A stretch of DNA of 64,000 nt from Tubiluchus corallicola. Taxonomy: Eukaryota; Animalia; Priapulida. The stretch lies in contig JAQGDQ010000007.1 in NCBI GenBank assembly GCA_030141605.1, positions 483,173-547,172 on the forward strand. The letters are read 5' to 3'. Below are positions 244-51,349 of this stretch, one piece after another (positions within the stretch are counted from its first letter, which is position 1; each line of letters opens with the position of its first letter). A program made the translations under genes and the position numbers. Below the pieces are notes generated by a model. The model made no database searches and had not been told where the DNA came from. It was given only the letters and a program-made list of their open reading frames with translations.

Positions 244-534
244 AAGCTCGTTCTTATCATGGCTGTTTTGCAAATTATAAAACGGAGTCGTACTATCCTT
301 TTACTGTGTCACTTGCAAACTTTACCTCTGACTTGGACACTGAATGTCTCACGCTATGTCAAAATAAAGGTTATTACTTTAGCAGTCTTCATTATTTGGA
401 GACAGACAACTACACTTGTAAGTGTGGCAATGGTTTTCCATTCAAAAGGTTCTCATTAAACTGTGCAAGCTGTACAGAGACAACTCATGGATTTTGTCCG
501 AAGAAAAATGCAGTTTCTGTTTATGCTACAGAAA
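244..534 (+). CDS. PKD1-like exon: WSC domain 1
   Basis: YHGCF...CLTLCQNKGYYFSSL...CKCGN...C..C....FC....VSVY. Acceptor ttttcattgcag, donor gtaagt, phase 1-1. Confidence 0.85.
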
Positions 535-15500: not shown

Positions 15501-18500
15501 CAACAGAATACAAAGAATTTAAAGTCCTTGTAGTTTTAGCATTAAGTGAGTGGTATCTACGACCAACAGGGAACATTTCAAAAAGTTTCTTACCAGGGTG
15601 ACATTCATCACTAATAATTTACGTGCTCTCTTTGCTACCCTTGTTTCCTACAAATGTGCCATAGGTTGCTGTTGAACTCTTATTAATTTTGAAGCGGATA
15701 TAACAACCTGGATCTTCTTGCATGATAACACCGTACCAAACAGTGAGGGATGTCGCAAGACACTATAAATTACTGTGCGATAAAAACTCTCCATATGAAG
15801 ATTCTATATAGGTGCAGCAACTATAGTGTTTATGTTTACACGTTTGTGTATTTTGTAAAAAACAAAACATGTAAATACTTTTTAGAACAAACATGACCCA
15901 TAATGTTATTTATATTTTGCTTTTCAGATGTTTTCTTGTATTATTCAATAAACCCAAACTTACCGGCAACTTACCTGCCACCCGGCAATCTGAAACAGAA
16001 CTACCAAGCAGAGCTTACGATTCGAGCTTATGATATTTATCAGGAAAGTGTTAACACCACAGTCATTGTCACTGTAAGTTTTCAGCTCGTGTAAAGAATC
16101 CTTGTTTTTTGTTTCAACGTATTTTTGCCCAAATGTCTTGGTTAAAGATGAAGGTTGGAGATTAGTTTAAAAGGAAAATGATGATTTTTCATATTCTACC
16201 CCATTTCGAAGCATGGTAAAAAGTACACATTTTAACTCCTATAATAATGCCAAAATGTAATAAGTTAGAAACTTAATTAAAGGCAAGAGAGCCAAACTAG
16301 TGATGACATCACAACTGAACACAATTCTCAACAGCACAAACATTCCAAGAGCATGGTACACATGTTTGCAAAAGTGCAAATTGAAGTGTAATGCTACTTT
16401 ATGTAATAGATGTAATGGCCAAGAACTAGTTGCGTGATCATGAAAATACATTTCTGTGGTAATAATATTTTCACGTAAGTCTTTCTTGAAAAAAAGGCAT
16501 GTTCCTTTTCAGTATTTTGCAGGGTAGATTGTTTTGAGCAACAGTTTAAGATTGGGTCCGGTTTTTCTTTAACTGTAATGAAAATTCAAGTTTTTTACGC
16601 GCTATAGTTTGCAGTCGCATATTTTATATCCAATGCATCCGTTATTGATCCATTATAAAAAGACATTGCGAAGATTAGTGGCAGTAATTATTCGGATTTA
16701 TTATACGCATTTTGTTGTGATTATACTAGCATTCATATTCATTTGCTACAATTAACAGTTTTTCTTCTTAGGTTTACCCGTATGATGCTTTTCTTCTGGG
16801 GCAGGTAAACGAAACTTCGCCTTTGATGGCTCTGAATGTTTTGAAGAACTTGATAGTGCCAGATTACTTGCCAGAGAAGAGCAAACTTCAGTCTTTATTA
16901 AATTCTGGTGATCTTCAAGGTGCATTCACTAGTGATGTATTTCCCTTATGAAGTGTTGCTAAAAGTGTGTATGTCTCCATAAAAGCAAAGAGTATTTTCT
17001 TTCCCCAGAGATGTGCAGGCATACCATCAATTCATTGATGCCATGTACATAGACTATTGCATAAAAAATATTGTTGTTTTCTGCTGATTATGATTTTATT
17101 TGATGAAAAGGTTCTGACTTACCGTGTTCTCATAATGCATCCTTATTATATCTGAGTTGTGAGCAACATGTCTTTTTGTGCGTGGAAAACATTTGTAAGA
17201 TGTTTATTTCCTCACATCATACTTAATTTAAAATTACAGTTAGTGTAATGTATGCAAATTTCCAATACCTTTTACTGGCTTTATTTAGTTTAGGTGATCG
17301 ATTTTTACTCAAGCCTTGTAAATATATACAGTATGTATGTCATATTTTTTGCATTGCAGTTTAGTGGCATATATGAATCACATTTGCAAGTTCTTTACAT
17401 GTGCAAATGATTTGTGGGATAGCAAACTCTGATATCTTCGATTAACTTTATTTTGTTTTATCAAAATTTTCTTAAAAACACGTGACATTTAAGCTTGCTC
17501 AAGAAGTTTTCACTTGTACCCTGCAAAACCATACTCATTGTAACAATTTACTAGTTTGAATATCGCTACATTTGCAGGGCTTTTAGAATTTGTGGCTATG
17601 TCACTTGCTGTACTGAATAAGGACCTGTCAGAATCTCCACCTGGTGTAACAATAAAACCACTCACTGAAGATGAAACTGCTGAAGCACTTGCTATTAAAA
17701 CAAAGGTATAAAGGTTTTAAGTCTCCTGAATTTTTTAACTGTTAACAGCTGTGTCACTTTTTCGAATTGCCGGAAATTGTGAGTTAACAGCTGTGTCACT
17801 TTTTCAAATTGCCAGAAATTGTGAGTAGCATAGTTGTTTGTTGTAAGATCTTTTTTTATCTGTCATTTTCTAAATGTAGAAAACATTTTGTGTTTAGTAC
17901 ACGTTCTTCCATTACTTCATGTTATAATGTACACTTTAATGGCATTTGTTGATTGGTAAACTGAAGTGAAAAAAGTTTAGAGACTGTTACAAAACTTGTT
18001 CATACTGTTTCCTGAAGTCACTTCACTGCTGTAAGACTCATGTGATGTGTGACTATAGTGAGTGATTTTCATTTTCTGTTGCAGTTACATTGTATGACTA
18101 AAGAATAGGTATCATTGTTTAGTATTTGTCGTGTAGCAGTTTCATTGTACGCTCGCTAAATATATTAATTTACCTTAAAAATATCTAAAACACTGTTGGT
18201 TCTGCCATTAACATTATTGCGGCTCATTGTGCAGGTTATTAATTGTGTAAACTTGTTTGAGTAAAACTTGCGTTCCAAAAAACATGTACATGCAGTGAGA
18301 AACGTTTTCAACTTGTGATATTTTCTTGCATTATTAAGAGTAACTGAACCTCTGTGCAGCACTCAAAAACTTTCAACATGTGCTGCAACATGTAGAATGC
18401 AATAATGCAAGAAATAATGGTGTTTGGGTTGGAAGGGTACTCATCTTGATGTTATTGTTGTTCTTGTTGGGGATAACCTTTTGAAGAAACCCAAGATTTT

Positions 18501-21500
18501 ATGGATTTAAAATAAATTGTCTAGAGAACCTCACATGAATAAAGTAGAATAAATTCTGCATCGATTGGCAGAGTTGGATTTTGAATCCTTCCATCTTGAT
18601 TTCAATAAGTCTCCACAAGTCAACATATAGTTGTAGTTTAACCTGCTGTTGACACTTTGTTGTTAATGAATAATGAAGCCTCTGTGCATTTTAGGGTGTA
18701 TATACACATGATGCATGCATCTTGCTTTTGCATTCTAGACACGGTGACTCATTTTCCAGCATGGGGTCAACACTGAAAAGTTGGCTCAAAAGACCAGACG
18801 ACTTAAAATACTTTAAAAGAGTGGAAATCATTGGGCCTATATTGTTTTTTATTCGCACTAAATCTTCACTGTGCCTACTTACCACTGGCTCCCAGGCTAT
18901 CAAAATGTCAAGATTGTTGTTTCCTTCCCCGAATGCCCCTAACAGTGACAACCCACATGGCCCAACCTCACTTATCTGACTGGTCTGGTTCTTGCATCCT
19001 GGTTGTGATGTCGCAAGAAATTGGAATATGCGTTTAAAGCACGAGTCATAGACTCGCATCGTATGTACAGCTTACACCATGCATTTTTGACGCATGTTTC
19101 AAAAATGCACTGTGCAGATACTTCTTACTGCATTTCATAATTTCAGGTGAGAAATGTACTTGCACTTGTATTGGTAGAATTGCCACTTTATTCTCATCAG
19201 TTTATGAAGCAGGTGGCTCATTTACTGGCACAAAGTACGGTAATCACTGACGAACTGAAAACACAGTCAAAGGTATCTTAATCTGGTTTTGTATTTCTGC
19301 ATCATTTGTGATGTTACTTGCATAAATACATTCTAATATATAGGTTATGCGAAAAAGAGTGTGTATTGAATTTTTAATTTTATGTTAAAAACTGTGTGTG
19401 CACGTGCGTGCGTATGTGTACAGTGTCACATATAATTCATGTAGAAATGTAGTGATGTAACTTAAGAGTATGGTAATTTCTTGCTTAATGTCAAATCAAT
19501 AATGCCATGCTCAAATTTCATGAAATAGCTGTGCAGTAGCTGCACGTTTTGTATAAAATTATTGCAAATGTACAATGATTTCTCTAAACTTGTTTTCTTA
19601 ACAAAATTGAGAATTTTTTTTTACATATTTTCCTCTGTTTGCTCCCTTTGTATTGCTTGTCTTTTGTTTCGCAAGATGTCTTTTCTTTGTGTGTGTTTTT
19701 AGCTCTTTAGTACTTTGTAATGAATATTAGTGCCATTGCATCTCACTTATAAGCTTCGCTCTCTATCTGGGGGTCACTTTCACAAAGAATTTCAGAGCGA
19801 ATATTCTTGAGAAATCCATACAGATGATTTATGGCTAATTTGCAGTGGAACGAGGAGTTTCTTTTGTGTTTTGTCCTAGCTGAACGAGGTAAAAGCTGCA
19901 ATTAATGCAGCATTTCGTGTACGTGCAACAAGTAAAAAGTTTATCTGTGCCTGAGAAGCACTATTATTAATCTTTACTGTATATCTGTGTTTCATTCGCT
20001 GCTGGCAGAGTTGGTGTGCAAATTGTTACATGATTTAGGATAGTAATGGCTTCTTTATTCAAAAGCCAGTGCACAAAACAAAATTCCAGCATGTAAAATA
20101 GAGCTAAATATCATTTTTAAATATAAAAATTTGGCATTAAGAGAGAAACAGATATCAATGTTGAGCATTGTTAAAACAAAGTATTGCTAAAATAGGAGTC
20201 CTTTAAAATGTGTCCAGTTACTGGAAATGTTGCAACGTGATTAAGTGATTTCTTACAGTAATTCTTATTGTTGAAATACAATTACAATTTTCAACTTTCT
20301 AATACGTGGGAAGGAAAGCTTGGTCAGAAATGCAACCTTCTGGTAAATGATTTCTTTTGTTATGCTATCAAAGTGAGAATAGTTCAGCGATGATGTATGG
20401 GTCTTGGTTTTTGTCTACTTAAAACTTATTTTTTATAGAGATTTATCATGGACAGATTTAAAGATATAGCACAGTTTTTGGATGATTTCACTTTCACATT
20501 TGCTGATGAGTTTCATCTAAATGATCCTGTTAGGTATTTTCTTTGTATATTTTGATTCTTTTTTAAATTGCACTTGAGCTAGAATCTCATAAGTGACTTT
20601 TTTGCAAAAATAAGTTATGCCCATAGTTTACATCAGAAGCATTGCTTGTATGAGTGGTGGTATTTTAGTGCTGCCATCTAGTTTTAACAGCATTAACCTT
20701 CATTTTTATACTTTTGTAACTACACATTTGTAAATGTTCAGTTAAAAATATTGTATTTGCTGCAGTGGCAACATATCGTATTCTCAGTGCAAAAGTATTG
20801 TATCTGCAACAATTATAAAAAATATTTTATGATTTTAACTGCTAGTGTATGTGTAACATTTATTAGGATCTGTCAATAATCTTTTATCCTGGTAGTCTTA
20901 TTGCATATTTACTTATAGTGCACAAAGTAAATGAATAGTTTCAATGGACAGGGGACTACACAACTATTCAGCAACTATTCTTGTCATCATTCATCAAGTG
21001 GATTGTGATTGGTGACAAGAATAGTTTGCTGAACTCTACATTTGAACTGATGCGACTCTAGCAAAATTTGGAAAGAATTTACTGACTAAGTTGGCAAACG
21101 AAACTGGCCTGGACAGCTCTCCTGATTGGAGAATATTTTTACCTGCACTAGAGCAGTGAACCACTTCCATGTTCGTTGTTCACTTGTGGTCACCTATCAA
21201 GACATGTGTACAACATGTGCTCTAAGCATACTTGCGAGTCTGCGCTAGCAGTGTATCGTGCATTAATATAAAAAAAATTAATAATGAAATAGATCCGAAA
21301 ACAGAGAGATAGAGAAAGGTCTGTCTATCTACAGTCAAGTGCATGCAAATAAGCACGAGATCATTCGATATACTACAAAAATAAAATTGGCAGGTTGCCA
21401 AAAGTTTTCAAAATTATAAAACGAAACTACTTTATTAAAAAGTTAAAATCATGCCAAACATTTCAACTAGCTCTGCTGTCATCATCAATGGTGCATTCAC

Positions 21501-24500
21501 AAACATGCAATCATTGTATGTTTGTAAATTTACCACTGATGATGACAGTCATGATTTGTCGATTTTTTTTATTTTCTTATGTAATATTTGTGTGTATGAT
21601 TCTTGCAAACTAGTTCATTTATGTTGTATCTCACAGGTATTTACTTATTGGAATGTCTAACATCCTTGGTACATCAGTGAAAAGAGTGAAAGAAGCTATT
21701 AAGGCTGACAGTAATGCGTCTACAATTGAGAGAGAAAGAATTTTACGCATGAAAGGCGAGGTAAATTTGATAGTTTGTTACATGTAAAAGATCTACTATC
21801 ATGCAATATCATTCAGAATTGCATAACCGAGGTCATTGTTTATAAAATCTTTGCAGGTGAGTCAGAACTGTGTTCTAGCATGAAGTTGATTTTTTGAGGC
21901 ATTAACGTAACTCTTCATCTTATTTTATGAACCTAATACAAAGTGCTCGATGTATAGTCACTTACATACTCGTTTTGATAACTGGTTGTTACATACTTTT
22001 TATCATTACTTTAGGTTAAAGAATTAACCAATAAAGCTTTTGCTGTTACATCGCTTATCTCTTCAGCGATGTTTCACCACAAGACTTTGCTGGATGATCC
22101 GTCACATTTCCAGGAAGATTTTCTTGCACTACATTTACAGAGGAGAAGTGTCAGAGAATTTGCTGGTATTTGGACATTAATGTTGCTGTTATAATTTATT
22201 AAATTGATTATAGTTTCTGCTGCTTTGAAAAGAGTGTGCTGTTTGCTTGCATCAGTTTTCATTGAAATTCAATTAATTCTGACCTCGAATCATTTTTTTC
22301 GGGAATTTTTTTTTATTTAAAGAGGTAGCACATGTATTTTTGTCTAATTTTATGTAATTTTTTCATGAACTAAATGGTTATTGAATGTGCTGAATGATCA
22401 AATTTAAACATGGCTATACCTGGTCAGCAAATGGATGGGTGGCCACTTCATTGAAAATGCTTCTGGATAGTTTCATCTATCAAGCATCCCATTTGTATTT
22501 ACTTCATTGAGGAAATTTGGCCAAGACATCTGTGGTAATTCAGTGTCTCATTTTAGAATATTCATGAGTTGGATAATGAGGATGGGTAAAAACAAAACCT
22601 TACTAATAAAATTTTTCACTCTCCAAATTTAATGAATTTAATTTGATAAAAAATTCAATACCTAAATAAACCAGCAGTAAATCATGTGCACTATGTATAT
22701 GTAGCTACTTATCCTAATGGGGATGCTGGCTGTGTTTTCAGCGGCACACAGGCCCATTTTTGTAATTAGTTGCAGCCACACAGGGCATACTCATCTGCAG
22801 CAAGCTGTTATGTTCCTGCACAAATTTTGTAACACATTGATGCATTTAAATAGCTGTCAAATTTAGAAAATTGAGTGATTTCAATACTTTTCGCAAAATG
22901 CAGAAAAGAATGCTGTATACTTTTTATGTTGAACAGTTTTAGATACAAGGTCTCACTAACAAACCAGAAGGCTTTAAAACAATAGTTCTGTCAGAACTAC
23001 ACAAATATTCGTCATCGTGAAGGAGTTAAAGTCCACTTATGTCAAAAAAACTCTCTACATTGGGTAGATGCCATTCAGTGTGATATCCCAGGTTTCACAG
23101 TGCAGCAAAGCGTATAAAAATTGCACATGCAACTGATTATATTGTAAAGTTCATTAACTTAATAATGGTTTTTTACAGATTTGAATGTCAAGGTCAAGAA
23201 TTTAGGCACGTTGAATATGCCAGCATTGCATGAACTTGTGCACAATGACACACTGCTTGATTTGGAGGTTTGAATTTTGATTTTCTGTGTTACTTTGAGT
23301 AAATTCAAAAGTGTTGTTATAGCGTGTGCTAACATTCTAAATACTAGGTACATGTGATTTAACTTGTGAGGTAACACAAGTAGCTTTTTGTGCAGCAGTT
23401 TTGGAGCTATTATGTCACTGCTTTTTGCATTATACATATATGTGTACAATGCATAGACTAGCCGCTTTTTCTAATTGGAACATTTATGCTTTTGTAGATA
23501 TTCTCTATGTCTGAGGATCCTTTTGTTTGGTCGAGTTCTTTGGGCAAGGTCAATACCGCAATAGCAGATGTAGTTGTTAGCATCAACCATGGTAAATCCA
23601 CACTTGAACGCTTAGATTTCCCGCACTTAGATGACCCAGTTGAGTTAATATTTGACATATCAGGTAGGGCCTGTTCCAGTTACGTTTGCAATAACTTCTG
23701 AGTATGAGTTGGTACAATTTGTATAAAAAATAGTCATGGTTATACAATCTTTTAGCCAATACTTTTAGGTTTGAAATTTGAACTGCTGATTAAATTTATA
23801 CAAATTTGTATACTTGATAAGCTTACTAGCCAAAGACTTTGTATTTAGGTACTGAGAGGGTTGATTCATATTTCTACATAAATCCATTTGGACCAAGTAA
23901 CAGAGACATCACTGTTCACAGCTTTGAACTACAAGCACATAGCACTGGTAGCCTGTCATTTCTAGATGTACCTGTCGATGTTTCTTTAAAGGTCAGGTGC
24001 TGTGTTTTAGTAAATACAAGTGTGAATAAAAGCTTACATCAAGTGTAGACATTTTTCCACCAGATCGGTGAAACGGGGCTCCTTCAAACTTTAATGCATT
24101 GGCATAGTTTACTAGCAAAATTGACATGTTTGCAGATAGTGATGTGACATTTTGTAAAAAAATTACCTGATAAACTTTCAATACAGTTAAAATTTTGTCA
24201 CTTACTGAGCACAAGGAGAGGGGAATAGTTAGGTGATCATACTTGGTTGCAAAGTTAGGCAATGCTAGGTATGACTAATAAATGGATTGATGACTGGCAG
24301 GAACAGCTTCTTTGTGATTTCATTTTGGAGGACTCAGTTGACTGAGGATGTGGCTAAGACATTTTTGCTGGTTCACTGTTTTATGCTACAGAATTATATT
24401 TGATGATGCAGGAGGTTCTAGTTCTTCCATAGCCATAGCAATGTGCTTGAAAAACCAAAATGATGAGTCTATTTGCTCACCATTCTGTTTAAAGTTGCAA

Positions 24501-27500
24501 AGCAATTGTAATGCTGTTATCTATGATAAGTAGAAATTTTACAGTGAATCTGTTAATTTCATAGTTTTTATCAAATGACAACTTTCACATATTTTTTTTT
24601 GTATTGTAGGTTGTTTTTTCAAAATTTAGACCGGTAATGCACGACTTTTCAAAAAACTCTGATATTCTCCATATCCCAACATCTCGCAATGAGACTTATG
24701 CTAGTCACCATCCCATGGATACATTGCAGGTTTTTAACAATAACAGCACTTCAGCTACATTGTTTGTTGGCATTTTATTTGATTCATATTATGATCCATC
24801 GTGCTATAAACCATCTCTGATGTGCAAAGATGAAGTAAAGAACTGTAGTGAAGAAAATGAAACGTGCAGTGTAAACTCTTGTATGGAGAAACATATTTGT
24901 TATGATGATTGGGTAGACTACTGTAAAAAGGGTTATTCAGAATGTGTGCAGCAGAAAAACAAATGTTTTACTGACCAAAAGAGAACTTGTGAGCGATATC
25001 TCAAATACTGTCGTGAAGGATGTTCACAGTATCCAGACGTGAACTTGTGTAATGTACGCTGTTTGCAAGAGAAGAACAACTGTACAGACACTGCTGAACT
25101 GACATGCTCGTTTAAGGAAAGCTGTATACATAATGTTGAGAAGGCATGTGAAGAAACTTTAACAAAATACTTTCAGCGTGAAAAGTGTAAAACCCTTTAC
25201 TACAATTGCTCGAAGGCTTATATTGAACCATGCAATGCTGAATTGGCTGGGTGTCGGAACATTTGCATGAAGTTGCATTGTAATCCATCATGTGATTCGG
25301 CTCTTTTAGATGAATGTACTGCCTCCTGCGAGAAAAAGGCCCATACTTGCCGCGAGCCAATTTTTGAAGCTTGTAAAGAAACCACCGTGCAAACTTACCC
25401 TTTGTGTGCAGATAAACTATGGTTGACAGAGAATGAAAATGGGAGCAAAATTGAAGAGTGGCCAGAAAATCCAGGTAGTTCACAGATTTTACAGGTTATT
25501 TTACTAAAGAAACTTAATAGCTATTCAGAAATTTGTAATGCTACTGAAACATTGAAAATGTGCATGACTGATGCCATACAGTGCAATGTCAAATATTTTG
25601 TTGGATTTTTGCGTTTTTGTTTCCACGTTTGATGCACTCATAAAGAGTATATATATATACTAAAAAACTGTCAATGATTGAACATTTTAGATTTCACAAT
25701 CTCATCTTATCAAAGACTCTTGCCGAACTAAGTTGATTTTGTTGGAGAAAGATGACTGTAATACATTTATTTTTTATATTATGTCTCTACTGTTGGTCTA
25801 GAAACTTAAATTTTACATTACAATTTTAGTTTGTTCATGTCTTAGGTGATGTTATCGACTATCTTATTGCTACTTACACTGCGGATGTTTTACATGCCGG
25901 AACTAGTGCCTGGGTTTACATTGTGCTGCATGGTTCTTTCAATGCTTCTGAGCAATACCAACTGCAAAGCACAAGACACAATTTTGATCGCGGAAAGTGA
26001 GTTCATGCATCCTAAATTATTTAAGTGGCTGTGTCCCTTATTTTGTGCATTTTGTGGTACTGAAAAAAATGTTTTTTCCAATTTTTTTTGCTTATAGGTG
26101 CTGTACCTGTATTCCTTTACCCAGCAAATTTTTTTGGTTCAGAGACTCGACCAAAATCACTAATCACCTAAATGTTATTGTTGCTGTTTTTCTTGTTCTT
26201 GAGGATGAACTTTTTAAAAAAATATTACATATTTAAAAAAAATTATTCTCGTACTGGTTTGCATTCTAATAATTTTTTTCAGTACTTTTATTCTTATTTC
26301 TTTTTGCTTGTTGACTTTTACTTAGTAATAATAAAAACTAATAATACAAGTTTGAATATTTCAGGGTTGACTTGTTTCACGTACGTGTGCTGTCAGTTGG
26401 TTTTGTAGAGAGTATCACCATTTGGCATGATAACACAGGACCTGGGTCTGGTTGGCTACTAGAAAAGGTATCCTAGAAAAATATAGAAGTATTACATTAG
26501 TGGTGATATCCCAGAAAAGGATAGAAGTATTACATTAGTGGTGATTTCTAATACGTTGTCTTATAATGTGAAAACACTTATTGAAGTATTTCCTAGCAAG
26601 TGCAATTTAACAGCAACATTTTGCTGTATGCGGTTGCTTACTGTAACTCATTGAGCTCGATATGAAGCTGGATGTTTAATAGAGCTATTGTGATGATGAT
26701 GATGACAATCATAGTGATGGTGATGATTACATTAATAATATGTTTTTCCTGACAAAGAGTAATAATGTTAATGACAGATATTCTTTTCAACCATGCATGA
26801 TCATACTTAAACATTCTAAACTTAAAAAGAACATGTGTATAATATTGCGTGCATATACCAATAAATTATTGTTCATTAAAAATAATTCTTGATAAAGATT
26901 GATCATATTTTCATCAAAATTAACCACCAAAAGAAGTAACTTCTCCTAAGTAGGAGAGTTTACCTGCCTTGACAAGTTTATAACATTTTTTTACATTTAC
27001 TTCATTAATTATCCTGACATTGTTTTTTAGGTGATAGTAATCAATGGGTATCTGCAGTTTACGTGTCCTTGCATGAAGTGGTTAGAAGGCAGTCCTGAGC
27101 ACAATTTTCAACTCATTCCTTGCTTTTTCAGTGCTAATAACACTCCTGCAGGTATGACAAGTTTAACATCTACTATGAGGATACTCTTCTAGTCATTGCT
27201 CATTTAATAATTAGTAAGGAACATATTGATATAACAAGAGAAGCGACTGGCATAGTGTGCTTTGTAGAAAAACTAGAATATTTCCCTCTCTAAAGCCCTT
27301 AACCAAAACCAGCATTAAACTGTAACTGTTTTACAAACCAGTTTAACTTTAATTGTATGTATTTTTATCAAATTCCGGGACAGTTTTTTGTGAGCAAAAA
27401 AAATACATAAATATCTATATTTTTTGGTTTAGAGCCACCAAAGAGAGTACAGAAGAACTTCACATTGATTTTTACTGAATCACACTGTCTTTACTGGAAC

Positions 27501-30500
27501 AATGTATCAGTGACGTGGTCACAGGAAGGGTGTAAGGTAGCAATAATATTATTTAGTTTCAAATTTATAGCTTTAATTCACTGTTTATCTTCAAAGTAAG
27601 GATGCCAGCAAAGTAGTAAGTAAGAGTGTTTAGCAAAGGAGTAAACATGTTCAGCATAGCAGAAGAGCTAAGTTAAAACACAGTAAGAAAACCTAGCAAA
27701 GTGGCAGGAATGCTTAACAAAGCAGCAACAATGTCCAGCAAAGGAGGAAAAATGCTGAGGAATGCAGCAAGAATGGCAAGCAAAACATTATCAATGCTCT
27801 GAAAATTTATACAAAAAAGAAAACGTTGAATACTCCTGTAGTCTCAAAATAATTATTTGTATTTATTTACAGAAGCTTTCAGTTTAGAGAGCATCATCAG
27901 CTAAAAATTATAGAAAAAAATTTATATATAAACAGTTTATACCAGTGTGAAACAAGGATATTAAAAGCAAAAATAGTAGCTAAACATAACTGATTTAAGG
28001 TATAATTTAAGGTTGAAGAAAGAGTAAAAAGTGTCTCCATAATGACTGCATGTTTTATTCTGTCTTATTCTAACTTATTGTGTCTTAAATCAGTGAGTCA
28101 GACTGTGTCAGAGTACTATAATATCCAAGTAACTTTTTCCTCATATTGCCTACATAAATGCCGCCATCATTGCTGCCACCACTGTATTATCATTTTCATC
28201 ATTCTAACAATTGTCATTGACATCGTTATCATTCCTGTTGCCACTGGCATTGCAGGATAATGAAGAGCCGGATAACGTAATTACTGAAATCTTACACAAA
28301 TTATTGAAAACGTAGGCAAGGTAAAATTTATAAAATTGCTTAGTCATTGTTCTAATTGGTAATTGTTGTCGTAATTGTTATCTTTCATTATAGGTGGGAA
28401 ATCTTGGATCTTGGAATAAGCTTCATTGCCTCTGTTATCATCTAACTGCATTTGGCGGTCACTTCTTTGGTATGCCAAATATGGTCCATCATTTCAAGGA
28501 GCCTTCATTTTTTACAAGTGCCTTTCCTAATATGGTTATTGTCGTGGTTGTTTGCTTCCTGTGGTTCATCTTTTTTCTATTAGTAATTTATGCAAGAAGA
28601 CGCGATGAAGAAGATGAGTTACGGGTTGGTATACCTTAACTGCTTCATTTGTTTACAGAATAAACATGTTAAAAGATCTGATTTAATTAGAAGTAAATTT
28701 TGGAAGGTGACAAAAAAGTTGATGGCTCAGATTTAGAATGTGCGACCTGACATTGCAAGGTTGTCTGTCCTGGTTGACTTACAAATTTTCAGCACATTCC
28801 TTAATTAATTAGCAGTAAGTTTAATAGTTAGTTACATATAAAGACTGTTAGGTTCATTAATTCTGGCTTATCACAGCCAATGTCTCAAAAAATTTTGCTT
28901 TTAAAAATCTTGACATATAACTTAAATTTTCGCATAATTAATGGCTTTTCACAAAATGAATTATTAATCTGCATGCTATTATTGAAACTGTGCACTATTA
29001 TCTTACAAAGATTGTAGTAACATCTATGCAAAGTTTGGAAGTATATTTTTATATACCATTTTTATAATTTTTTAAATCTGTAATATTGTTGCATACACAT
29101 GTTTTATTACATAACAATAGTGTTTAATGCTATTGTGGCAGCTGTACGACTATGTATCTAATTGTGACCATACTGATAATATTTTTACGGGTTATTAACT
29201 ATAGCTTGTCTTAATTACTTGTGTTGACAGTGCAGCATAATTTTCCTAGAAGATAATAATCTACGGGATACATATGCTTACCTCATAACTGTCTACACGG
29301 GTTTAAGGTACGGATCTGGTACAACGTCTACAGTTACTATAAGTTTATCAGGTATGGAAAGTATGTTTTTGTTTATTCTTGGCAATTATTTTAAGAATAG
29401 CGTAAACTGCTGAAACATTTTGTCATATGTAAAATTTTATAATTAAAGCATTAATTTATTTTTTAGGTGAAGATGGAAACAGTTTGCCAGTATTACTGAC
29501 CAGCCAGAACAGGAAGATTTTTTCCAGAGGTTCACAAGATTGGTTTCTAATGACTGTATCTCGCTCTCTTGGTGAATTAGTCTGTTGTGAGTTGTGGCAT
29601 GACAATTCAGGAAATGCTCCATCTTGGTATGTGTGGTATTAGGACCTGTAAAAAGACATCTGTAAGGGATGAGGAGAATAACCATGTGGTCATAGTGTGT
29701 ACTAATAATCAATGTTAAGCAACGGCAAGTGTAATTTTAAATGATGGGTGACTGCTGGATTAAGATTAATTACTCATACTGGTATTTTCATTCACTGATT
29801 CTGGCTGCTTATCAGCAACAGCAGCAACAACAACAGCAACAGCCATAACCACAACAACGACGACAACAACAAACTGCCTGTCCAAATATCGAACAGTTTT
29901 CAACAAAGACAAGTACAGTAGGTGCCACTTAATAGACTCACTTTGGGACCGACATGTTTTGACCCAATTCACCTACTGAACCTATTAACCGACGGATGTA
30001 GTATTACAGGTATAGATGTATGAGTCATCAACTTACTATGTAGTACAGCAGTTTTTAATAAATTTTGGAAATGAACTAATCTCTAAATTCCTTTGTGCCG
30101 TTAAAAATTGGATAAAAAATTTTAAATATTAATTTGTATAAGTGAAAAACCAATAAGTTAAAAAGTATACTTTTTTAAATCACAGGTTTCTAAGTCTGTT
30201 TATTTGCAAAAATTACAAGAATTCCTTTAATATTGGCTAGTTCATTTTCTTGCGAAGTAGTTGGCCCAAAAAGTTCTTGTAATTATAAAACGTTGAAAAT
30301 CTGTTGTTGTGTGTGACTCAAACATCTGAATCATCTGCTCACTTTGTTTGCTCTTATTTGCTGTACATAGTTTTTATGTATATTTGAATAGAAGCTGCCC
30401 AATACCAGGCATTTTTGAGTCAATTAAGCGATTGAGTTTAATAACCATGCGTCTATTAAGCGGCACGTACTGTACTTTATTACTTTCATTACTTTCATTA

Positions 30501-33500
30501 CTCTGATGACTTACATTGCATTGCATGATAACTTACCACTGCTCTGTTATTTCCATATATTTGACAGAAAAACAGGAAATGGCCATTCTGAGTCTTTGCT
30601 GTTTCCCAGCTGTAGGATTCAGCCCACAATTTTTTGGGACAAAAATCAGGCAAGCATGCAGTCAAGCAACCTATCACTTCCTTAATTTAACTGAACTTTA
30701 CATTTATCAGGTTTTTGAGTCAAGTGGTTATTAGAGATACACAGACTGAACAGGTTTGGTTTTTTCTCTACAATGACTGGCTATCACTTGACCGTGGTCC
30801 ACAAACTGTTTACTGCATGTTGTACCCAACTCCGGAGCTCACACTCAAGGTATATGATTATCTACTGTTTGGTGATGCCATTAACATGTGGACTGTAAGA
30901 AAATAAGCGTCGACACACAATTCTTCTTGAAGAATTTAGCCGTGTTTCTGCTTGAGCTTGACCTTCTGCTATTACAGATTGCTACTGACAAATATTGCTT
31001 ATTTCAATGTCATTCACAGATTATTATGATCATATTAATTAGAATATTGTCAGAATGGAAGAAAAAATGGTGCTATTGTGTAAAGAGGTAAGTGGGTTTC
31101 TTGGTTACTACTGTGGAAAAAAAGCTTTAGCCTTTAGTTTCAACCAAAATGCCAATTGTTTGAGTTATTAATCAAATTTAAAACTTCTAGTTACTAATTG
31201 ATGTCCAACATAATGTCAATCATTTTCACTAACAGCCCAATCAGCGTGCAAGTTATTTTGCACCCCTGCAGAGCTTAATTAACGCAGGTACGTTTGGGAC
31301 ATTTAGCTACTATTGCGTCTAATGCTGTTATGAAAAATGCTCGACTTTTCATTAGTTAGCGGGAGAAATATTGGCCTTGTTCTATTTTTTATTATTGTGA
31401 ATTGAAATTTCAAGTGAATTAGTGCAAATATATATTCTAGTTTCGTTTATAGGAAGAAATGCACAACGCTTATGTCTATGAGTTGTTGATTAAACCATTT
31501 TGCAATCAAGAAAATATGCAATTTAGTTTAGTTTATGCAAGTTAGATGAAAACAACTATTTGATTAATTTTAAGTAAGGATAAAACAAAATGTTTTCTTT
31601 TCAGGCCAGTTTTTATAAACCTCAATGAGATCTTCACAGTCAAAATTAATTCAAATGTGGTCAAAACTTATATTATACATCAATGTAGTATTAGTTAATT
31701 TTATGCTATTTTTCTGGTTATAATCATGGTTAAAAGATCCCATTGGGACTTATGTGACTTGGGCATTCAATATAAGGGTCGTCTATGGAATGGAACAGTC
31801 CAATTTATTCCATTTCTGTAGCCTGACAAACAGAAAAATACAAAAACTGAATAAATCTTGCAGACGAGCACATGGTCAGTTAATATAGAACAACAAATCG
31901 CAGGCTTGATGTTCGTATGTTTAAAGGCAAGAGAGACTTAATATTTTTGTTGCTCATTTGTGTAAAGCAAGGCTAACTGGCTTAGTTTCTTTATTAAACT
32001 TATGTCTCTGTATTTTGTAGTGCTTTGTAACTTCATCTATACATTCTATTTAAATTGAAAAGTCATTTTTTGGCCACTAGAAGCATTAATTTCGTGTTAA
32101 AATAGCTGCTACTCTGCAAATTTGAATTTATGAAGAAGTGCAATCAGTTTATCTGCTAATTAGACATTAGTCGAGACTGTCTTGTTGTTTAGTTTAGTTT
32201 TGCTTGGGGCAGTTGTTGTCCAACGTGAACTGTTGTCCCAAATGCTACTGAGCATGCTTACGTTACAGTGGGGTCGGAGCGACTAGACCAATATGTTTGA
32301 CGTCAATTGTAGTAATCGTTTTGGAGTTTTTAACAGATCTTCTTGGATTAATGTTTGTCAGTACAGATAAACTGCTTTACTGCTTCTATATTTTTTATAA
32401 TTATTTTTTGCAATATTTAATTTTTAGTTTTACATTTTAAGCCATTTATATTATAAAACTAAGTTGTAACATGACTTCAAATTTTTTCTACATTTTCACA
32501 GTTCTTGTTGGATTACCATTTCTTTCTTCTCTAAATAAAATGATGATTTATTACTACTTTCTAGTTTACCAATATTTAGATTAATTATGAAGTGTTAACT
32601 GGCTTGCCTTACGCTTACATGACAGAATGATTTAATAAATGTTTTGCAAGTGAGGCTTTCACTCACTTAAGCTTTTTTCAAGCAAATGGCTTGCCTGATC
32701 TAAGTTTACCATGATAAACAATTAGGCGGGATTTTTGTTTTTCCTCAATTTTTCTGCTAATTCTTTGTTGTCGACTTATCGGCAGCTTACTGTTAAATGG
32801 CAACTGTATTTTAATAAATGTCTAACTAATACCTGAAATTAAAGTATTTTTTGTAGAGCTTTTATAACGTGTTCAAGAATAAATTTCTGGAAGATGTAAA
32901 GGACAATGATTTATGGACTGGTATTTTTCTGAGACCACCGCAAAGTTCTTTCACGCGAGTTCAGGTTGGTCAAAAATCAAATTTTTCACTGATGAAGACA
33001 TCTGTATTTCTAACAAAAACAGCTGCGGAATAAAAGACTATTTCTACTTGCCCAATTCCATTTGTTTTAAAGAGTATAGTTTCACCTAAATAGAGGATAT
33101 TCTGAATTGTAATTCTAATGAAACCATGTGCCCAGAATGCGATCTTGGGTTCGCATGCTGTGTGTTGTGCTACACACAGTATTTGTCAGCATTAACATCA
33201 GCAAAGTGTTTTATTACTCCTTATGAACGGTCTCAGTTGCGACCCAGTGGCTGGAATGCTGCCAGTTTCAATATGATTCGTAGCTTTGATGTACTGCATG
33301 TTTCATATGTGTACTGTATGCATTACTTAAATAAGCATTATTCCAGTGCATTTTGCTTATTTATGTGTATGATATATGACATATAGATTAAAATATAATG
33401 TGTTGCTAAACTGATAGTTACTGGCTACAGTAAACTTATTGTGAGAGGTACTTTCATAATTACCTAGAATGAGTTTCCAATTATTTGGATATTTGTTTAA

Positions 33501-36500
33501 ATTTGGGTTTAGTTCTGTAATGCAGTAAAGCGATAGGCTGTCACATTTCAAATGTTCTAACTGTGTAATAAGTTGTGTGTTACCAGAAACTTGTGAAATT
33601 TTATGCGGGAATTTTGCTGATAATGAAAAATATCAGCTGCTCTTTGCTTACCCATTAAGTGCCACATTAGAAAGACTAACTTTGGCAGGTTGAGAGGTTT
33701 TAACTGTTTAATCCCAGTATTACATGGGAATACATTACAAAGATGAGTTTATCGAGTATTGTCCAGTCACCGCAGAAGTTACTCCGTGAAGAGAATCACT
33801 TAGCATGGGCAACAAGCAGTAAGCAGCTTAGAGTGCCTAGACTAATATCCCTGTTCATTTGTTCTTTTTTCTAGTAAGAAATGTTGTGTGTGAATATGGG
33901 CAGGGGGCATGTCCTTTGGTTATAACAAACTACTCTTCCCCCAATTAGTCCATTATAATGAAGTCTACTATAATTAAATTCTGGAAACTTTTCAAACGTG
34001 TTTTAGTACCAGTGCTGTGCTTACCTACTATGTACTGAGCTGGTAGCATTTATCACACAACTTTCTTGAAAGTTTCAATGTTATATATTTCTCCTTACAT
34101 TTTTGTGTCACAATATTTTCAGAGATTATCATGTGCTTTATGTCTGCTGACTCAAGTCATGATGGTTACCATCATGTACTATGGTGTTAATGATAACCCA
34201 GAGGATCAGTACGATGTTGGACATAGAGGAATAAGGTTTTCTCTATCATCCCTTTATGTGGGTAAGTTTAACTGTTTTGTATTTTAATGACTACTGTGAT
34301 TTCAATCACGAAAAGAAACTGTATGTTTTAAAAATGTTTAACTGCGAAACAATTAGGCTTTTTCTATTTTCAGGATGTATAATAGGTCTCCTTCTTTTTC
34401 CACTCAATTTTCTGATATTCTTGTTGTTTCGTCTTACAAAAGCACATCCTAGGAAACATCTTACAAATAGGAAAAGGTAAGATTTGTTTTATTTACTCTT
34501 AGTTTTATAGCATTGTATACCCATTTGTTGCATTTATGTGCTGCTTTTTCTAACTTTTCTAGCTTTTTTTCTGTTTTATTGATTGTATGCCAAACTATTC
34601 TTTGCACTAGGTTTTTGATATCAGCTTGCATGAATTTGTCATTTCTATTTCTATCTTCTTTTTAATTTTTTTATTGCTTATTCTTTTTAATTTTTCATTA
34701 TTTCTATATCATTTTTCTTATTTTTATTGCTATATCCCTAGCTATTTTTTACACAATTTTTTGTTTTATATCATTGTAATCTGGTTAGTTGATAGTAAAA
34801 TTCCTGTGGTTGGACTATTGCTTAAGCATATTTAATTATGACCCATGATGAACAGGTCAAGTTTTCTGCAACAAACTGTTCGAAAGTAACATCTTTTGTG
34901 CAACCAAATTTCCTGACTGAATTTTCAGTTTGCTGCCTGGTGCTTTCTTTTTACACATATTAATATATATTTCTTTTTCGTTTTGCATTTTAAGGAAGAT
35001 GAAAAAGGCCAAAGCTTCGTCGATTAAAGAAAATGAAAGCTTAAGCAGTGCAAGTTCAGTGGCTTCCAAATACTCTAATATATCGGTAATTTTCTTCTTG
35101 TTTGCCTGCTATGTATATAATAAACTTGACATTTAACCTGTTGACTTTGCCAGTTTAGTTATATTTTTTCACTTTGTAGTATTATAATTACAGGAATCAG
35201 GAAGGAACCTACGCAGTTGAACAGTCTTAAGAGACATCTGGTTTCTGATTAATCCACTAGTATAGTATGTCTGCTGGTAATTTTTTTATTTCTTCAGGAA
35301 CTTGAGCCGAAATTTCAATCAGAGTCGAGACGGCTGAGTTGGGTCAAAATTAGCAATCAAAGATTGGATAATTATGTGCAAGAAATGCGCAGAAACATCA
35401 AAGATGTCGAGAACATTCTAGTCGATCTGGCAAAAGATTTTGAAAATGATGAATGCCAACAATTTGTAAAAGTTCATTGTGAAAGAAAAGTGTTCTTGCG
35501 CAGTCAATCGGCAACGAGTGCCAATATAGATGATGATGAAACAATTGTCAAACTTGAAATTGATCCCTCTACTGGATTGGCATTGCCATCAGTCTTAGTT
35601 GCTACTGATACGTTGGATAAATATCAGGACGATGAGACATTTGCCTTGTCAGAGTCATGGTCTGAAATGGATACCACATTAAAAAAGGGCTTTGCTGCAA
35701 CTTATTGCCCATGTCTGGTCAGAATGTTGCAGAATTTTTCATCTAGTGACCGTGAGGTACGGTTGCCATGGTGGTGTGTGTACGTCGGGTGGATTATACT
35801 TATCACTACATCAATTTTGTGTACCTGTATGACTGTGTTCTACGGTTTTAAATACGGGTACCAGAAGAGTGTCAACTGGTTAACTTCTATAGTAACTTCA
35901 TTCCTTCAAAGTGTTATTTTTATTGAGCCCTTAAAGGTTCTGTTTTTTGCTGCTATTTTTGCTATATTGTTCAAAAAGTCAGAGCAGTCAGAGATGAAAG
36001 GGAGTAATTTTACAATAGAGGAAGAAGATAGATATGTGAAAGAGACAACCGATGAATATCAAAGGTATGTCAAATTTGTGGGCTTTCGTGAAAAAAACTT
36101 GAATATACTGCATAGAATTAAATTGGTAATTTAAATGCTAATCATGTGGTCATCCATTCTTCAAGTTTGGATGGACACTATGGCAGGAAGAATGGATATA
36201 GTTATTAGAAAATAATCAGCTTCTGAAATAATATCGCAAATCACTTACCCACGGAATAACAGGCCAGAAAGAGTTAAGCTATAATTGCTTTATTCTACTT
36301 CATTGGTCCCAGGAGGTCTTAATAAATTGTGCAGCGGATATAAAATTGGTACTTAATACTAGAGAGACATAAGTGCAAAAGCAAAAAGAAAGCAAGTTGC
36401 AGTTTGTTAGGTGATTTTACAGTGGAGTGCTGTTAGTCATATGGATCTTCATTTGCTATTTTCAGACAGCTCTACTGTCGATGTAAACCACGCCATGAAG

Positions 36501-42479: not shown

Positions 42480-42779
42480 TGTAAATCTAACTGTTCAATA
42501 TTACCATTAACATCAACACATTAAATTTTTAAGTTAAGTATAGAACAATAGTTTAACTTAAGTTAACATTTAGAGATCAAGACACTGTGGTGGCCTAAAT
42601 TCTCTTCCAGAATGTGCGCGCCTAAAGCTTGTAAATCTAACAGTTCAATATTACCATTAACATCAACACATTAAATTTTTAAGTTAAGTATAGAACAATA
42701 GTTTAACTTAAGTTAACATTTAGAGATCAAGACACTGTGGTGGCCTAGATTCTCTTCCAGAATGTGCGCGCCTAAAGCT
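42480..42779. repeat. 150-bp tandem duplication at the 3' end of the old gypsy element
   Basis: 42480-42629 and 42630-42779 differ at about 2 positions. Confidence 0.9.
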
Positions 42780-44039
42780 GTTTTGCGTTGGAGTGAAAGT
42801 TCTTGGCTCATACACTTTCTCAGTACAAGGGCTAGAGTGAACTGAATCTGCAAATGTTTCTTCATTTGCTTGAGAGCTTGAAATGCCAGTATCAGGCAAA
42901 TTTGGTGAATGGTAGTATCTACTACAAGGCAACTGTCATCAGAATCTTGCATTTTTTGTATAAGATCATCCTGGCCAGGTGCCAAGTGGTGTGTGGACAT
43001 AGGGTCAATGTGACCATCTGAATACTAAACCTTGGGAAACTGAGGAGAAAGGATCTCAACAAGTTTTACTCTTTCAACAAGTGGGTCACCTTTACGTCTC
43101 ATGTGTAACTTGTGGAAAAGTTCCTTCCCAGGCTCTACTAAGAAGTCAAAGAGCTGCATCCCAATAACATATGATCTAGGAAAGGTGAACATGCATTCAT
43201 GAGGTGTGCTGTTTGTCGAAGTACGCAGAAGTGTACGTATGGATTAATGCGGGGGAGGGGGACGTTTTCCCAGTGTTGTTTTGGTAGGCCTTTATTGCAA
43301 AGAGCTAAGTTAACTGTAGATAAGATTGTGCCATTGTCTGTTACCTTGTAGGAGGTAGGGCGTGGAGAAAGACTTCACTACTTGTTGTGGAGATCGCTGA
43401 CGTCAAGTAGAATTGCATAGAACATCGTAGAATGTTCCGTCGGAATGACCGCCTTAGCGTCTGGATTGTTCTCGAACATTTGTTCGAGAAGTTTCTGGAG
43501 TGCGTCATTATAAAGCGAAGCAGGCTGCCGACAGGGGATCGCACATCGACAGAGATCTAACACGGACTTATACTTATACTTACTTAAACGTTTTCCAGAT
43601 TTTCACGTTTAGTATAATCATTTCTCGTTCCTCCATACTTGTGTTGTAAGAATTTTCGCTCAATAAAGTAATAACATTTAACGGCGTGTTTTCTGGTTTT
43701 CTCTACGAGCCTTCCGAGAGAAACAAAACACAACACTACTCCGTGTTGCAGGAGAAAGTTTTTGAATTGTTGATCTTTGAATGCACCACCACGTGAGTGA
43801 ATGGCTGTAGGTAAACTGAAAATGGCAAACAGGTTGAGCAGGTGTTTAATGACAATATTGCTACACAGGAGGGCAAAGGGATAGCACGAATATTCATCTT
43901 CTATTATGAGTATGAATTGGTTATTGGAGCAAGTCGGCAACGGCACGTTGAAGCCTAAAGATAACCTCTCCCGCAGTTTTGTTGCCGAAATAAGTTACCC
44001 ACTGGAAGCTTGAAAAACCATGGTTTAAATTCTGTGCAC
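42720..44039 (-). mobile_element. Old, degraded Ty3/gypsy integrase (core and C-terminal part), split by the Gmr1-like insertion
   Basis: CTEFKPWF, PLPTCSNNQFILIIEDEYSCYPFA, LFAIFSLPTAIHSRG, STNSTPHECMF, DPLVERVKL, STHHLAP, RESRPP; frameshifts and stops. Confidence 0.8.
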
Positions 44040-51338: not shown

Positions 51339-51348
51339 TCTGACACCA
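51339..51348 (-). promoter_or_regulatory. Primer binding site, tRNA-Leu-like
   Basis: TGGTGTCAGA lies 1 nt downstream of the 5' LTR and is complementary to a ...TCTGACACCA tRNA-Leu 3' end. Confidence 0.8.
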
Positions 51349-51349
51349 G

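What the first reader, a model, noticed from the sequence alone, without database searches (positions are those of the whole stretch)
25846..27151. A second, predicted-extracellular PLAT domain inserted inside the GAIN domain of a polycystin-1-like protein, as a symmetric phase-1 cassette
Seen: three small exons (151+103+121 = 375 nt = 125 codons, phase 1 on both sides) splice into a complete PLAT/LH2 domain upstream of the GPS and TM1. The normal PLAT is also present after TM1 (29231-30849). Known: PKD1-family proteins normally carry one PLAT, in the first cytoplasmic loop. Seen: the extra copy has a different motif style (TADVLHAGTSAWV, FDRGKVDLF, GWLLEKV, CPCMKWL, closer to LOXHD1/lipoxygenase-type PLATs), different intron positions from the resident PLAT, and N-glycosylation sequons (NAS, NNT). 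Inference: it came by exon shuffling from another gene rather than local duplication. It would put a putative Ca2+/lipid-binding module on the cleaved ectodomain next to the autoproteolysis site, and it could be skipped in frame. I do not know of a described polycystin with PLATs on both sides of the membrane, but I could not search.
Basis: partly seen in the sequence, partly recalled or inferred. Interest (0 to 1): 0.82.

Follow-up and report, generated by a model that had tools for sequence, protein, structure and literature searches.

The report
Borrowed PLAT module inside polycystin GAIN
An intact invertebrate relative of the kidney-disease protein polycystin-1 carries three extra exons that encode a second PLAT domain, likely borrowed from a LOXHD1-type gene; together with an unrecognised cysteine-rich rod it is predicted to sit outside the cell inside the self-cleaving GAIN domain, where it would likely act as a binding handle on the receptor.

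Summary
Three GT-AG exons (151+103+121 nt, phases 1|2|0|1) splice in frame into a 39-exon, 2,850-codon polycystin-1-like gene with no internal stop. A profile built only from homologues' PLAT domains matches the spliced cassette (E 7e-19).

The insert is larger than reported, about 345 residues. A ~200-residue, 30-cysteine, predicted helical rod with no database match precedes the PLAT. Both lie in a loop that spans 19-98 residues in 62 homologous units, in the polycystin-specific GAIN subdomain C rather than the catalytic core.

None of 69 GPS-bearing homologues has a PLAT upstream of its own GPS. Local duplication is rejected (AU p=0.001). The domain scores as LOXHD1-type, and 7 of 7 mapped human LOXHD1 inter-repeat introns are also phase 1, so exon shuffling is likely; no donor was identified.

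The sequon argument fails: 154 of 392 LOXHD1 and resident polycystin PLATs carry one. No RNA holder and no orthologue covering the cassette was found, so splicing, skipping and function are untested. My searches of the scan's earlier notes did not show this architecture on other DNA. Verdict: a new variant of a known, highly shuffled family.

The parts
244..40725 (+). Polycystin-1-like gene, 39 exons in the window, 2,850 codons; 5' end (signal peptide) not identified and probably upstream of the window
   Evidence: Hand-built model, all introns GT-AG, no internal stop; WSC, REJ, GPS (weak, single exon), PLAT, Polycystin_dom and PKD_channel Pfam hits on exons
244..6076 (+). N-terminal WSC-type exons (244-534, 746-1090, 4650-4781 + 5897-6076)
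   Evidence: PF01822 E 3e-14 on 748-1125 and E 0.0017 on 5899-6072; no Pfam hit on 234-578
6860..16073 (+). REJ region (limits approximate)
   Evidence: PF02010 E 5.5e-9 on 12641-12880; exons
22015..24801 (+). GAIN subdomain B/C strands N-terminal to the insert, ending in the 'LFVGILFD' strand
   Evidence: Profile of 49 homologue regions matches model residues 55-300 of the 889-aa sub-model, E 1e-12
24802..25407 (+). Cysteine-rich insert, 30 Cys mostly 7-8 apart, predicted antiparallel helical rod; same exon (24610-25474) as the preceding GAIN strand
   Evidence: Cys spacing; single-sequence AlphaFold2 helices with block pLDDT 55-83 over residues 121-270; no Pfam, Foldseek, Atlas or homologue match
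25846..25996 (+). Extra PLAT exon 1 (151 nt, phase 1 to 2)
   Evidence: own PLAT HMM E 4e-11 in a six-frame scan; Atlas PLAT clusters at 0.93-0.94
26365..26467 (+). Extra PLAT exon 2 (103 nt, phase 2 to 0)
   Evidence: own PLAT HMM E 3e-11; covered to 26458 by a contig of run X1 with one difference
27031..27151 (+). Extra PLAT exon 3 plus linker (121 nt, phase 0 to 1)
   Evidence: aligns to the last PLAT strands in the spliced match; not hit alone
27433..27536 (+). Extended S10 strand and first half of the GPS motif
   Evidence: PF01825 E 0.013 on this exon alone; profile match E 1.5e-40 for residues 638-762
28394..28624 (+). Second half of GPS with HL|T at 28439-28447, tethered-agonist strand and TM1 (about 28532-28588)
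29231..30849 (+). Resident cytoplasmic PLAT, three exons (29231-29351, 29467-29626, 30711-30849), phases 0|1|2|0
   Evidence: PF01477 E 1.5e-4 on the middle exon; own HMM 141 bits
32857..40725 (+). TM2-TM5, TOP/polycystin domain and six-helix channel half
   Evidence: Hydropathy; PF20519 E 2e-20 and PF08016 E 7e-19 on the last exon

Best explanation
The gene encodes an intact polycystin-1-like receptor whose GAIN domain carries a ~345-residue insert, a cysteine-rich predicted helical rod followed by a second PLAT domain that likely arrived by exon shuffling from a LOXHD1-type multi-PLAT gene and likely serves as an extracellular binding handle. Shown: the exons, frame, splice signals, PLAT identity, the insertion point, and the intact GPS residues (C-x-x-W, W, C, C-x-C-x-HL|T). 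Inferred: the exons are spliced in (about 0.85); the donor was a LOXHD1/RP1-type phase 1-1 PLAT module (about 0.7); the insert lies outside the cell on the N-terminal fragment and leaves autoproteolysis intact, because it occupies a loop that tolerates inserts in homologues. Least certain (about 0.45): the PLAT binds a membrane surface or protein partner. Extracellular Ca2+ is high (own knowledge), so any Ca2+ site would be loaded all the time and would act as a constitutive tether, not a switch. The insert is joined directly to the extended S10 strand, which shares subdomain C with the tethered-agonist extension leading to TM1, so binding or pull on it would be passed to the stalk and would tune receptor or PKD1/PKD2 channel activity.
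For: Open frame and normal splice scores across three exons. Near-invariant PLAT columns are kept (Y, T, AGT, G, L, F, RG, D, F, G, HDN, G, W, L, F, C, WL) despite a long branch. LOXHD1-HMM minus PKD1L-HMM score is +22 bits for the extra PLAT, -56 for the resident, -21 to -74 for 69 PKD1-like PLATs and +18 to +70 for 323 multi-PLAT domains; the 75 best phmmer rows (self included) contain no PKD1-like PLAT. The tree places it outside the PKD1-like clade (SH-aLRT 89; 94). AU rejects extra+resident as sisters (p=0.001) and, marginally, extra+all PKD1-like (p=0.03). 7 of 7 human LOXHD1 inter-repeat introns mapped are phase 1 and lie a few residues before the first strand, as here; one of 5 mapped internal introns (c.1809) is 1 nt from the cassette's first internal intron. 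Loop length is 378 here against 19-98 (median 34) in 62 homologous units. In the AlphaFold2 model of a scallop homologue the loop lies between strand 617-624 and one long strand 639-659, matching the published subdomain C/S10 topology (PMC11697300). No hydrophobic segment precedes TM1.
Against: No orthologue covers the cassette, so conservation is not shown. No specific donor: the extra PLAT sits in an unresolved fork, best identity about 40%, on a long branch (1.2-2.3), and long branches weaken both tree and AU test. It keeps W in WHDN (100% of PKD1-like, 13% of LOXHD1 PLATs) and lacks the D of AGTD and the E of FERG that are commonest in LOXHD1, so Ca2+ binding may be reduced. Phase 1 is common in this gene (17 of 38 introns), so the phase match alone is weak, and the second internal intron matches none of the 5 mapped LOXHD1 internal introns. 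The LOXHD1 HMM is broader and attracts any divergent PLAT. Not all PLATs bind membranes alike (Alox5a versus Alox12, PMC8740744 passages). The signal peptide was not identified.
Confidence: 0.55

Rival explanations
1. The cassette is spliced in but is a tolerated structural passenger or spacer: it folds and is kept for stability or as part of one rod-plus-PLAT unit, with no lipid or Ca2+ binding and no effect on signalling.
For: The loop tolerates varied inserts: Thr/Ser-rich stretches, small Cys pairs, and R-x-K/R-R furin-like sites in 6 of 62 units. Two acidic positions common in LOXHD1 PLATs are changed or reduced here. The kept residues are largely core residues.
Against: HDN-x-G, the D after the first strand and N-F-D-R-G loop residues are kept as well as core residues. 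No other sampled homologue carries a folded domain here.
Confidence: 0.2
2. The three exons are a regulated or mostly skipped cassette, or a recent relic; the main product joins 25474 to 27433 and has only the Cys-rich rod in the loop.
For: Skipping all three keeps the frame. The only variant seen in the cassette is a missense change (26391 T>C, Leu to Pro, one contig of run X1).
Against: Three exons with normal splice scores, exon-like GC and no stop or frameshift on a long branch. Partial skipping gives early stops, so coordinated skipping of three exons would be needed. Pro is the commonest residue at that column in PKD1-like PLATs (40%) and occurs in 12% of LOXHD1 PLATs.
Confidence: 0.12
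3. The extra PLAT descends from a polycystin PLAT (an old duplicate from this or a paralogous gene) and drifted to a generic PLAT pattern after moving outside the cell.
For: WHDN is the polycystin signature. AU p=0.03 for extra+all PKD1-like is marginal and the branch is long.
Against: Sisterhood with the resident is rejected at p=0.001. Intron positions and phases differ (HMM columns 52 and 86 against 30 and 82; flanks 1-1 against 0-0). Held-out PKD1-like PLATs (for example P0152, P0144, P0115, P0136, P0071, P0134) still prefer the PKD1L HMM by 22-70 bits.
Confidence: 0.09
4. The exons belong to a separate nested gene, or the arrangement is an assembly artefact.
For: No contig of run X1 spans the whole cassette with its flanks, and exons 1 and 3 are not covered.
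Against: No start or stop of its own: in-frame stops lie just upstream of exon 1 and just after exon 3, the flanking introns are 371 and 281 nt, both phases fit the host gene, and no further PLAT fragment lies in the window.
Confidence: 0.04

Closest known systems
Polycystin-1 family (PKD1, PKD1L1-3, PKDREJ; sea-urchin SpREJ; coral and abalone TRPP1-like proteins)
   Same: WSC-REJ-GAIN/GPS-TM1-PLAT-11 TM with TOP and channel half; HL|T site. The resident PLAT groups with molluscan PKD1-like PLATs and three further rows (SH-aLRT 88).
   Different: A second PLAT and a 30-Cys rod inside GAIN subdomain C. The papers read describe one PLAT after TM1, 'always found intracellularly' (PMC1934368). 0 of 69 homologues have it.
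LOXHD1 and related multi-PLAT proteins (including RP1 multi-PLAT forms such as P0186)
   Same: PLAT style; ~125-130-codon repeats bounded by phase-1 introns, with human PLAT4 a 384-nt, three-exon unit.
   Different: A single repeat, embedded in a receptor ectodomain; LOXHD1 consists only of PLAT repeats and lies along the stereocilia membrane.
P0091 and P0203, the only fetched polycystin-like proteins with more than one PLAT
   Same: More than one PLAT in a polycystin-type chain.
   Different: P0091 is two whole REJ-PLAT-channel units in tandem, each PLAT after its GPS. P0203 (unnamed ENA record) has 2-4 N-terminal PLATs and a polycystin domain but no GPS or REJ.
PLAT/C2-like domains of lipoxygenases and of secreted proteins (lipoprotein lipase, bacterial alpha-toxins, Plasmodium gametocyte proteins)
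   Same: Same fold family; exon 1 gives weak hits to 5-lipoxygenase and an alpha-toxin PLAT (E 0.28 and 0.62). These families are listed as PLAT-bearing in PMC13162036; that several are secreted is my own knowledge, so an extracellular PLAT has precedent.
   Different: Those are appended to enzymes or adhesion proteins, not inserted in a GAIN fold.

Membership tests
Polycystin-1-like (PKD1/TRPP1) family | REJ domain | tested here: met
   PF02010 E 5.5e-9 on one exon
Polycystin-1-like (PKD1/TRPP1) family | GAIN/GPS with HL|T just before TM1 | tested here: met
   Profile matches E 1e-12 and 1.5e-40 on either side of the insert; HL|T at residue 1696/1697
Polycystin-1-like (PKD1/TRPP1) family | PLAT immediately after TM1 | tested here: met
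   Residues 1767-1888, E 2e-40 with own HMM; PF01477 on the middle exon
Polycystin-1-like (PKD1/TRPP1) family | [quoted passage not shown] | tested here: met
   12 hydrophobic peaks, of which I read one (2545-2563) as a strand of the polycystin domain; PF20519 and PF08016
Polycystin-1-like (PKD1/TRPP1) family | Signal peptide / extracellular N-terminus | tested here: inconclusive
   First coding exon not identified in the window; no hydrophobic segment before TM1
Polycystin-1-like (PKD1/TRPP1) family | Autoproteolysis at GPS and assembly with a PKD2-type channel | not testable with these tools
   Needs protein work
PLAT/LH2 domain (extra copy) | Full-length match to a PLAT profile with conserved core columns | tested here: met
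   Own HMMs: 61 bits, E 7e-19; 91 bits on the LOXHD1 HMM, columns 4-107; column table
PLAT/LH2 domain (extra copy) | Pfam PF01477 gathering score on the whole domain | not tested
   Only single exons were scanned, with no hit at E<=0.1
PLAT/LH2 domain (extra copy) | Ca2+-dependent lipid or protein binding | not testable with these tools
   Needs binding assays
LOXHD1-type PLAT repeat | Closer in sequence to LOXHD1 than to polycystin PLATs | tested here: met
   +22 bits; the best PKD1-like row is 76th by phmmer
LOXHD1-type PLAT repeat | Supported clade with a specific LOXHD1 repeat | tested here: inconclusive
   Unresolved fork, no starred group holds it
LOXHD1-type PLAT repeat | Phase 1-1 flanking introns and shared internal introns | tested here: inconclusive
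   Flanks match 7 of 7 mapped human boundaries; one internal intron is 1 nt off c.1809, the other is unmatched; only 13 human sites were available from papers

The most novel reading that the evidence does not exclude
A PLAT repeat from a LOXHD1-type mechanotransduction gene was moved to the outside of a polycystin and mounted, with a new disulfide-stapled helical rod, on the strand pair that holds the tethered agonist. The result is a Ca2+-loaded membrane grip that pulls directly on the receptor's stalk, switchable by skipping three exons, and a natural experiment showing that GAIN subdomain C is a force- or ligand-input site of polycystin-1.
Probability: 0.2. Interest if true: 0.8.

Novelty: new variant of a known kind. 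Interest (0 to 1): 0.5.

Why it matters
How the polycystin-1 ectodomain controls cleavage, the tethered agonist and the PKD1/PKD2 channel is open, and PMC11697300 (2025) states that no experimental PKD1 GAIN structure was available. This gene marks one loop of the polycystin-specific subdomain C that can carry about 345 residues with the GPS residues intact. That makes the loop a candidate site for tags, sensors or force handles, and a candidate natural input point. The gene also gives a clear case of a usually cytoplasmic module redeployed outside the cell, plus an unclassified Cys-heptad domain. The weight is limited: invertebrate PKD1-like ectodomains swap domains freely (Fz, LDLa, EGF, CUB, F5/8, kelch), and this is one gene with no transcript or orthologue support.

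Tried and rejected
RNA evidence: no RNA holder listed. Run X1 covers introns and shows no splice joints, so it behaves as DNA; X2 (RNA only by guess) gave 7 short partial pieces of 85-95% identity. This says nothing on expression. No whole genome is held.

Orthologue searches: Cys-rich exon, 0 hits among 209 candidates of 505-2000 aa; cassette exon 1, 0 of 2 candidates; metagenome scans, 0 confirmed of 29 and of 235 pattern matches; alignment A2 had no usable pattern. The nearest relatives, P0001 (57%) and P0002 (44%), cover only the last exon. Proteins over 2000 aa were reachable only through the last-exon search (best 150 of 1,794 hits).

Cys-rich rod: no Pfam, no Atlas hit, no Foldseek match at E<=0.001, no match among the fetched proteins. 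VIA-align libraries were not tried.

Rejected: sequons as topology evidence; P0091 as a precedent (tandem units); high-scoring PKD1-like hits as double-PLAT proteins (one PLAT each); bird and reptile LOXHD1 for intron mapping (poor anchor match); c.5085 could not be mapped.

Trees: the careful tree did not finish, so both are 'quick' trees. One search used 107 and one search used 40 of 444 PLAT rows; 30 PKD1-like rows were drawn at random after dropping three near-duplicates, and multi-PLAT rows came from 6 chosen proteins. The spliced GAIN with and without the insert was not folded; a homologue's GAIN was folded instead. No complex prediction was run.
Full report
Observation. Between the upstream exon (24610-25474) and the GPS exon (27433-27536) the phases are 1|2|0|1. 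I built the gene by hand across the window: 39 exons from 244 to 40725, all 38 introns GT-AG, 2,850 codons, no internal stop. Removing all three exons keeps the frame; removing any one or two gives an early stop in 6 of 6 cases. Exon-wise Pfam scans show WSC, REJ, a weak GPS, the resident PLAT, the polycystin domain and the channel, and hydropathy gives TM1 at 1726-1744 with nothing hydrophobic before it. The signal-peptide exon was not identified.

It is a real PLAT. Pfam did not hit the three exons singly. A profile built from 59 PLAT domains of homologues, without window sequence, matches the spliced cassette at 61 bits (E 7e-19). Alone it scores 67 bits against at most 10 for 1000 shuffles. 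The near-invariant columns are kept, exon 1 finds PLAT clusters in the Atlas and weakly finds the 5-lipoxygenase PLAT in the PDB. Splice-site scores and GC content look like those of the other exons. No other PLAT fragment lies in the window apart from the resident one.

The insert is larger than reported. A profile of the 330 residues before the resident PLAT in 49 homologue regions matches the model in two pieces with about 340 residues between them. From the 'YVGI'-type strand to the first GPS cysteine there are 378 residues here and 19-98 (median 34) in 62 homologous units; 6 of those carry R-x-K/R-R sites and some carry Thr/Ser-rich stretches. The first ~200 residues of the insert have 30 cysteines, mostly 7-8 apart, in the same exon as the preceding GAIN strand. 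Single-sequence AlphaFold2 gives long helices with block pLDDT 55-83 there (mean 53 for the whole exon), with no match in Pfam, Foldseek/PDB, the Atlas or the protein search. I read it as a disulfide-stapled helical rod; the disulfides are inferred.

Where it sits. In a model of the scallop homologue P0192 (50-row alignment, mean pLDDT 78) the loop lies between strand 617-624 and a single long strand 639-659 that runs into the GPS; the model matches BAI3 and BAI2 GAIN structures and PKD1/PKD2 complexes. PMC11697300 (passages; supplement passages) describes a polycystin-specific subdomain C between S9 and S10, in which S10 may run uninterrupted through both sandwiches and the tethered-agonist extension is the last strand. 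So the insert is in the last loop of subdomain C, at the start of extended S10. The PLAT ends at residue 1624, the S10 cysteine is 1663 and cleavage would follow Leu1696. It would be on the N-terminal fragment, away from the catalytic core but attached to the sheet that holds the agonist extension. I had no coordinates, so distances in space are not measured.

Origin. The extra PLAT prefers a LOXHD1-type profile by 22 bits, whereas the resident prefers the polycystin profile by 56. All 69 PKD1-like domains and all 323 multi-PLAT domains fall on their own sides (they are in their own training sets), and held-out PKD1-like domains also keep to theirs. In quick maximum-likelihood trees it lies outside the PKD1-like clade (SH-aLRT 89 with 107 rows, 94 with 40 rows) in an unresolved fork on a long branch. 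AU tests reject sisterhood with the resident (p=0.001) and marginally reject a clade with all PKD1-like PLATs (p=0.03). Variant tables for human LOXHD1 (PMC9196635 parts 2-3 of 5; PMC7538254 whole text) gave 13 exon boundaries, which I mapped on sperm-whale LOXHD1 (P0173; 23 of 24, 13 of 14 and 10 of 14 anchor residues match). Seven fall between repeats (five so labelled by the paper, two by my mapping), and all seven are phase 1, a few residues before the first strand, as in the cassette. Of five internal introns, c.1809 is one nucleotide from the cassette's first internal intron, none matches the second, and one site could not be mapped. The resident PLAT has other positions and 0-0 flanks. 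Against over-reading this: 17 of this gene's 38 introns are phase 1, the domain keeps the polycystin-type W of WHDN, and no donor was found. Shuffling from a LOXHD1/RP1-type module is likely (about 0.7), not shown.

Is it common? Among 235 fetched proteins, 69 have a GPS by my profile, 51 of them with at least 350 residues upstream; near-duplicates are included. 68 are GPS-PLAT and one (P0091) is two tandem units; none has a PLAT before its own GPS. P0203 has several N-terminal PLATs and a polycystin domain but no GPS or REJ. Ten literature searches showed no description of such a protein. PMC1934368 (part 1 of 4 and passages) says the PLAT is always intracellular. PMC4890752 and PMC12980990 (passages) describe one PLAT in coral and abalone proteins; their figures and supplements were not seen. 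PMC12716839 had no whole-word PLAT. PMC7049443 (part 2 of 4) added nothing. InterPro was not available and the library lacks most subscription papers, so this is absence in a sample. Four look-ups in the scan's earlier notes did not show this architecture.

What did not hold. Sequons do not argue for an extracellular site: 132 of 323 LOXHD1 and 22 of 69 resident PLATs have one. Topology rests on position before TM1. No RNA holder was listed. Run X1 behaves as DNA, covers most of exon 2, much of the Cys-rich exon and the GPS exon, and shows one Leu-to-Pro variant at a column where Pro is common in PLATs; it may be the sample the window came from.

Mechanism. Shown: an intact gene with rod and PLAT coded in frame inside GAIN subdomain C, and intact GPS residues. 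Inferred: inclusion, extracellular location and retained cleavage. Proposed: the PLAT acts as a binding handle. PLAT domains bind lipids and proteins (PMC8051682, PMC9672506, PMC9682198 passages), some with Ca2+ and tension dependence and some without (PMC8740744 passages). Outside the cell Ca2+ would be saturating (own knowledge), so a tether is more likely than a switch. Its attachment to extended S10 would pass binding or pull to the agonist extension and TM1. The changed AGTD and FERG acids leave room for a protein partner or for no binding; the assignment of these loops to Ca2+ binding is recalled, not taken from a call.

Verdict. A real and well-formed feature and a new variant of the polycystin-1 family, seen in one unidentified invertebrate. 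The resident PLAT groups with molluscan proteins, and earlier notes on this genome suggest a non-arthropod (unchecked). The family shuffles ectodomain modules freely, which lowers the surprise; an insert of this size inside GAIN, with a second PLAT, was not seen elsewhere. Interest 0.5.

Noticed in passing
window 24802-25407 (+): A ~200-residue segment with 30 cysteines in mostly heptad spacing, predicted helical, with no match in Pfam, PDB folds, the Atlas or protein searches; possibly an undescribed disulfide-stapled coiled domain.
   Followed up: partly
window 45768-50681 (-), with repeats at 44037-44336 and 51347-51646: Open 1,638-codon LTR-retrotransposon frame with SCAN, zinc knuckle, protease, integrase, then RT and RNase H: integrase before RT with gypsy-type domains (Gmr1-like order, name recalled); 99% identical direct repeats 7,310 nt apart.
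   Followed up: partly
homologues P0057, P0081, P0093, P0131, P0135, P0229: The same GAIN subdomain C loop carries R-x-K/R-R furin-like sites in 6 of 62 invertebrate PKD1-like units, which would be a second cleavage just upstream of the GPS.
   Followed up: no
protein P0203 (ENA, 1,907 aa, cluster of 50): Polycystin-domain channel with 2-4 N-terminal PLAT domains and no GPS or REJ.
   Followed up: partly
protein P0005 (Branchiostoma), residues 1995-2081: A CARD domain hit between the PLAT and the polycystin domain of a PKD1-like protein.
   Followed up: no
window 1292-2215 (+), 3506-4063 (-), 8372-8806 (-), 18694-19071 (-): Long open frames in introns of the gene that read like retroelement remnants by eye; no Pfam hit at E<=0.01.
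   Followed up: partly
window 35194-35240 (+): A 47-nt AG..GT segment in intron 33 that does not fit the frame of my model and was left out; it may be a cryptic or alternative exon.
   Followed up: no
window 42480-42779 and 38480-38890: A 150-nt near-perfect tandem duplication and, by eye, a run of ~60-nt degenerate repeats in intron 37.
   Followed up: no
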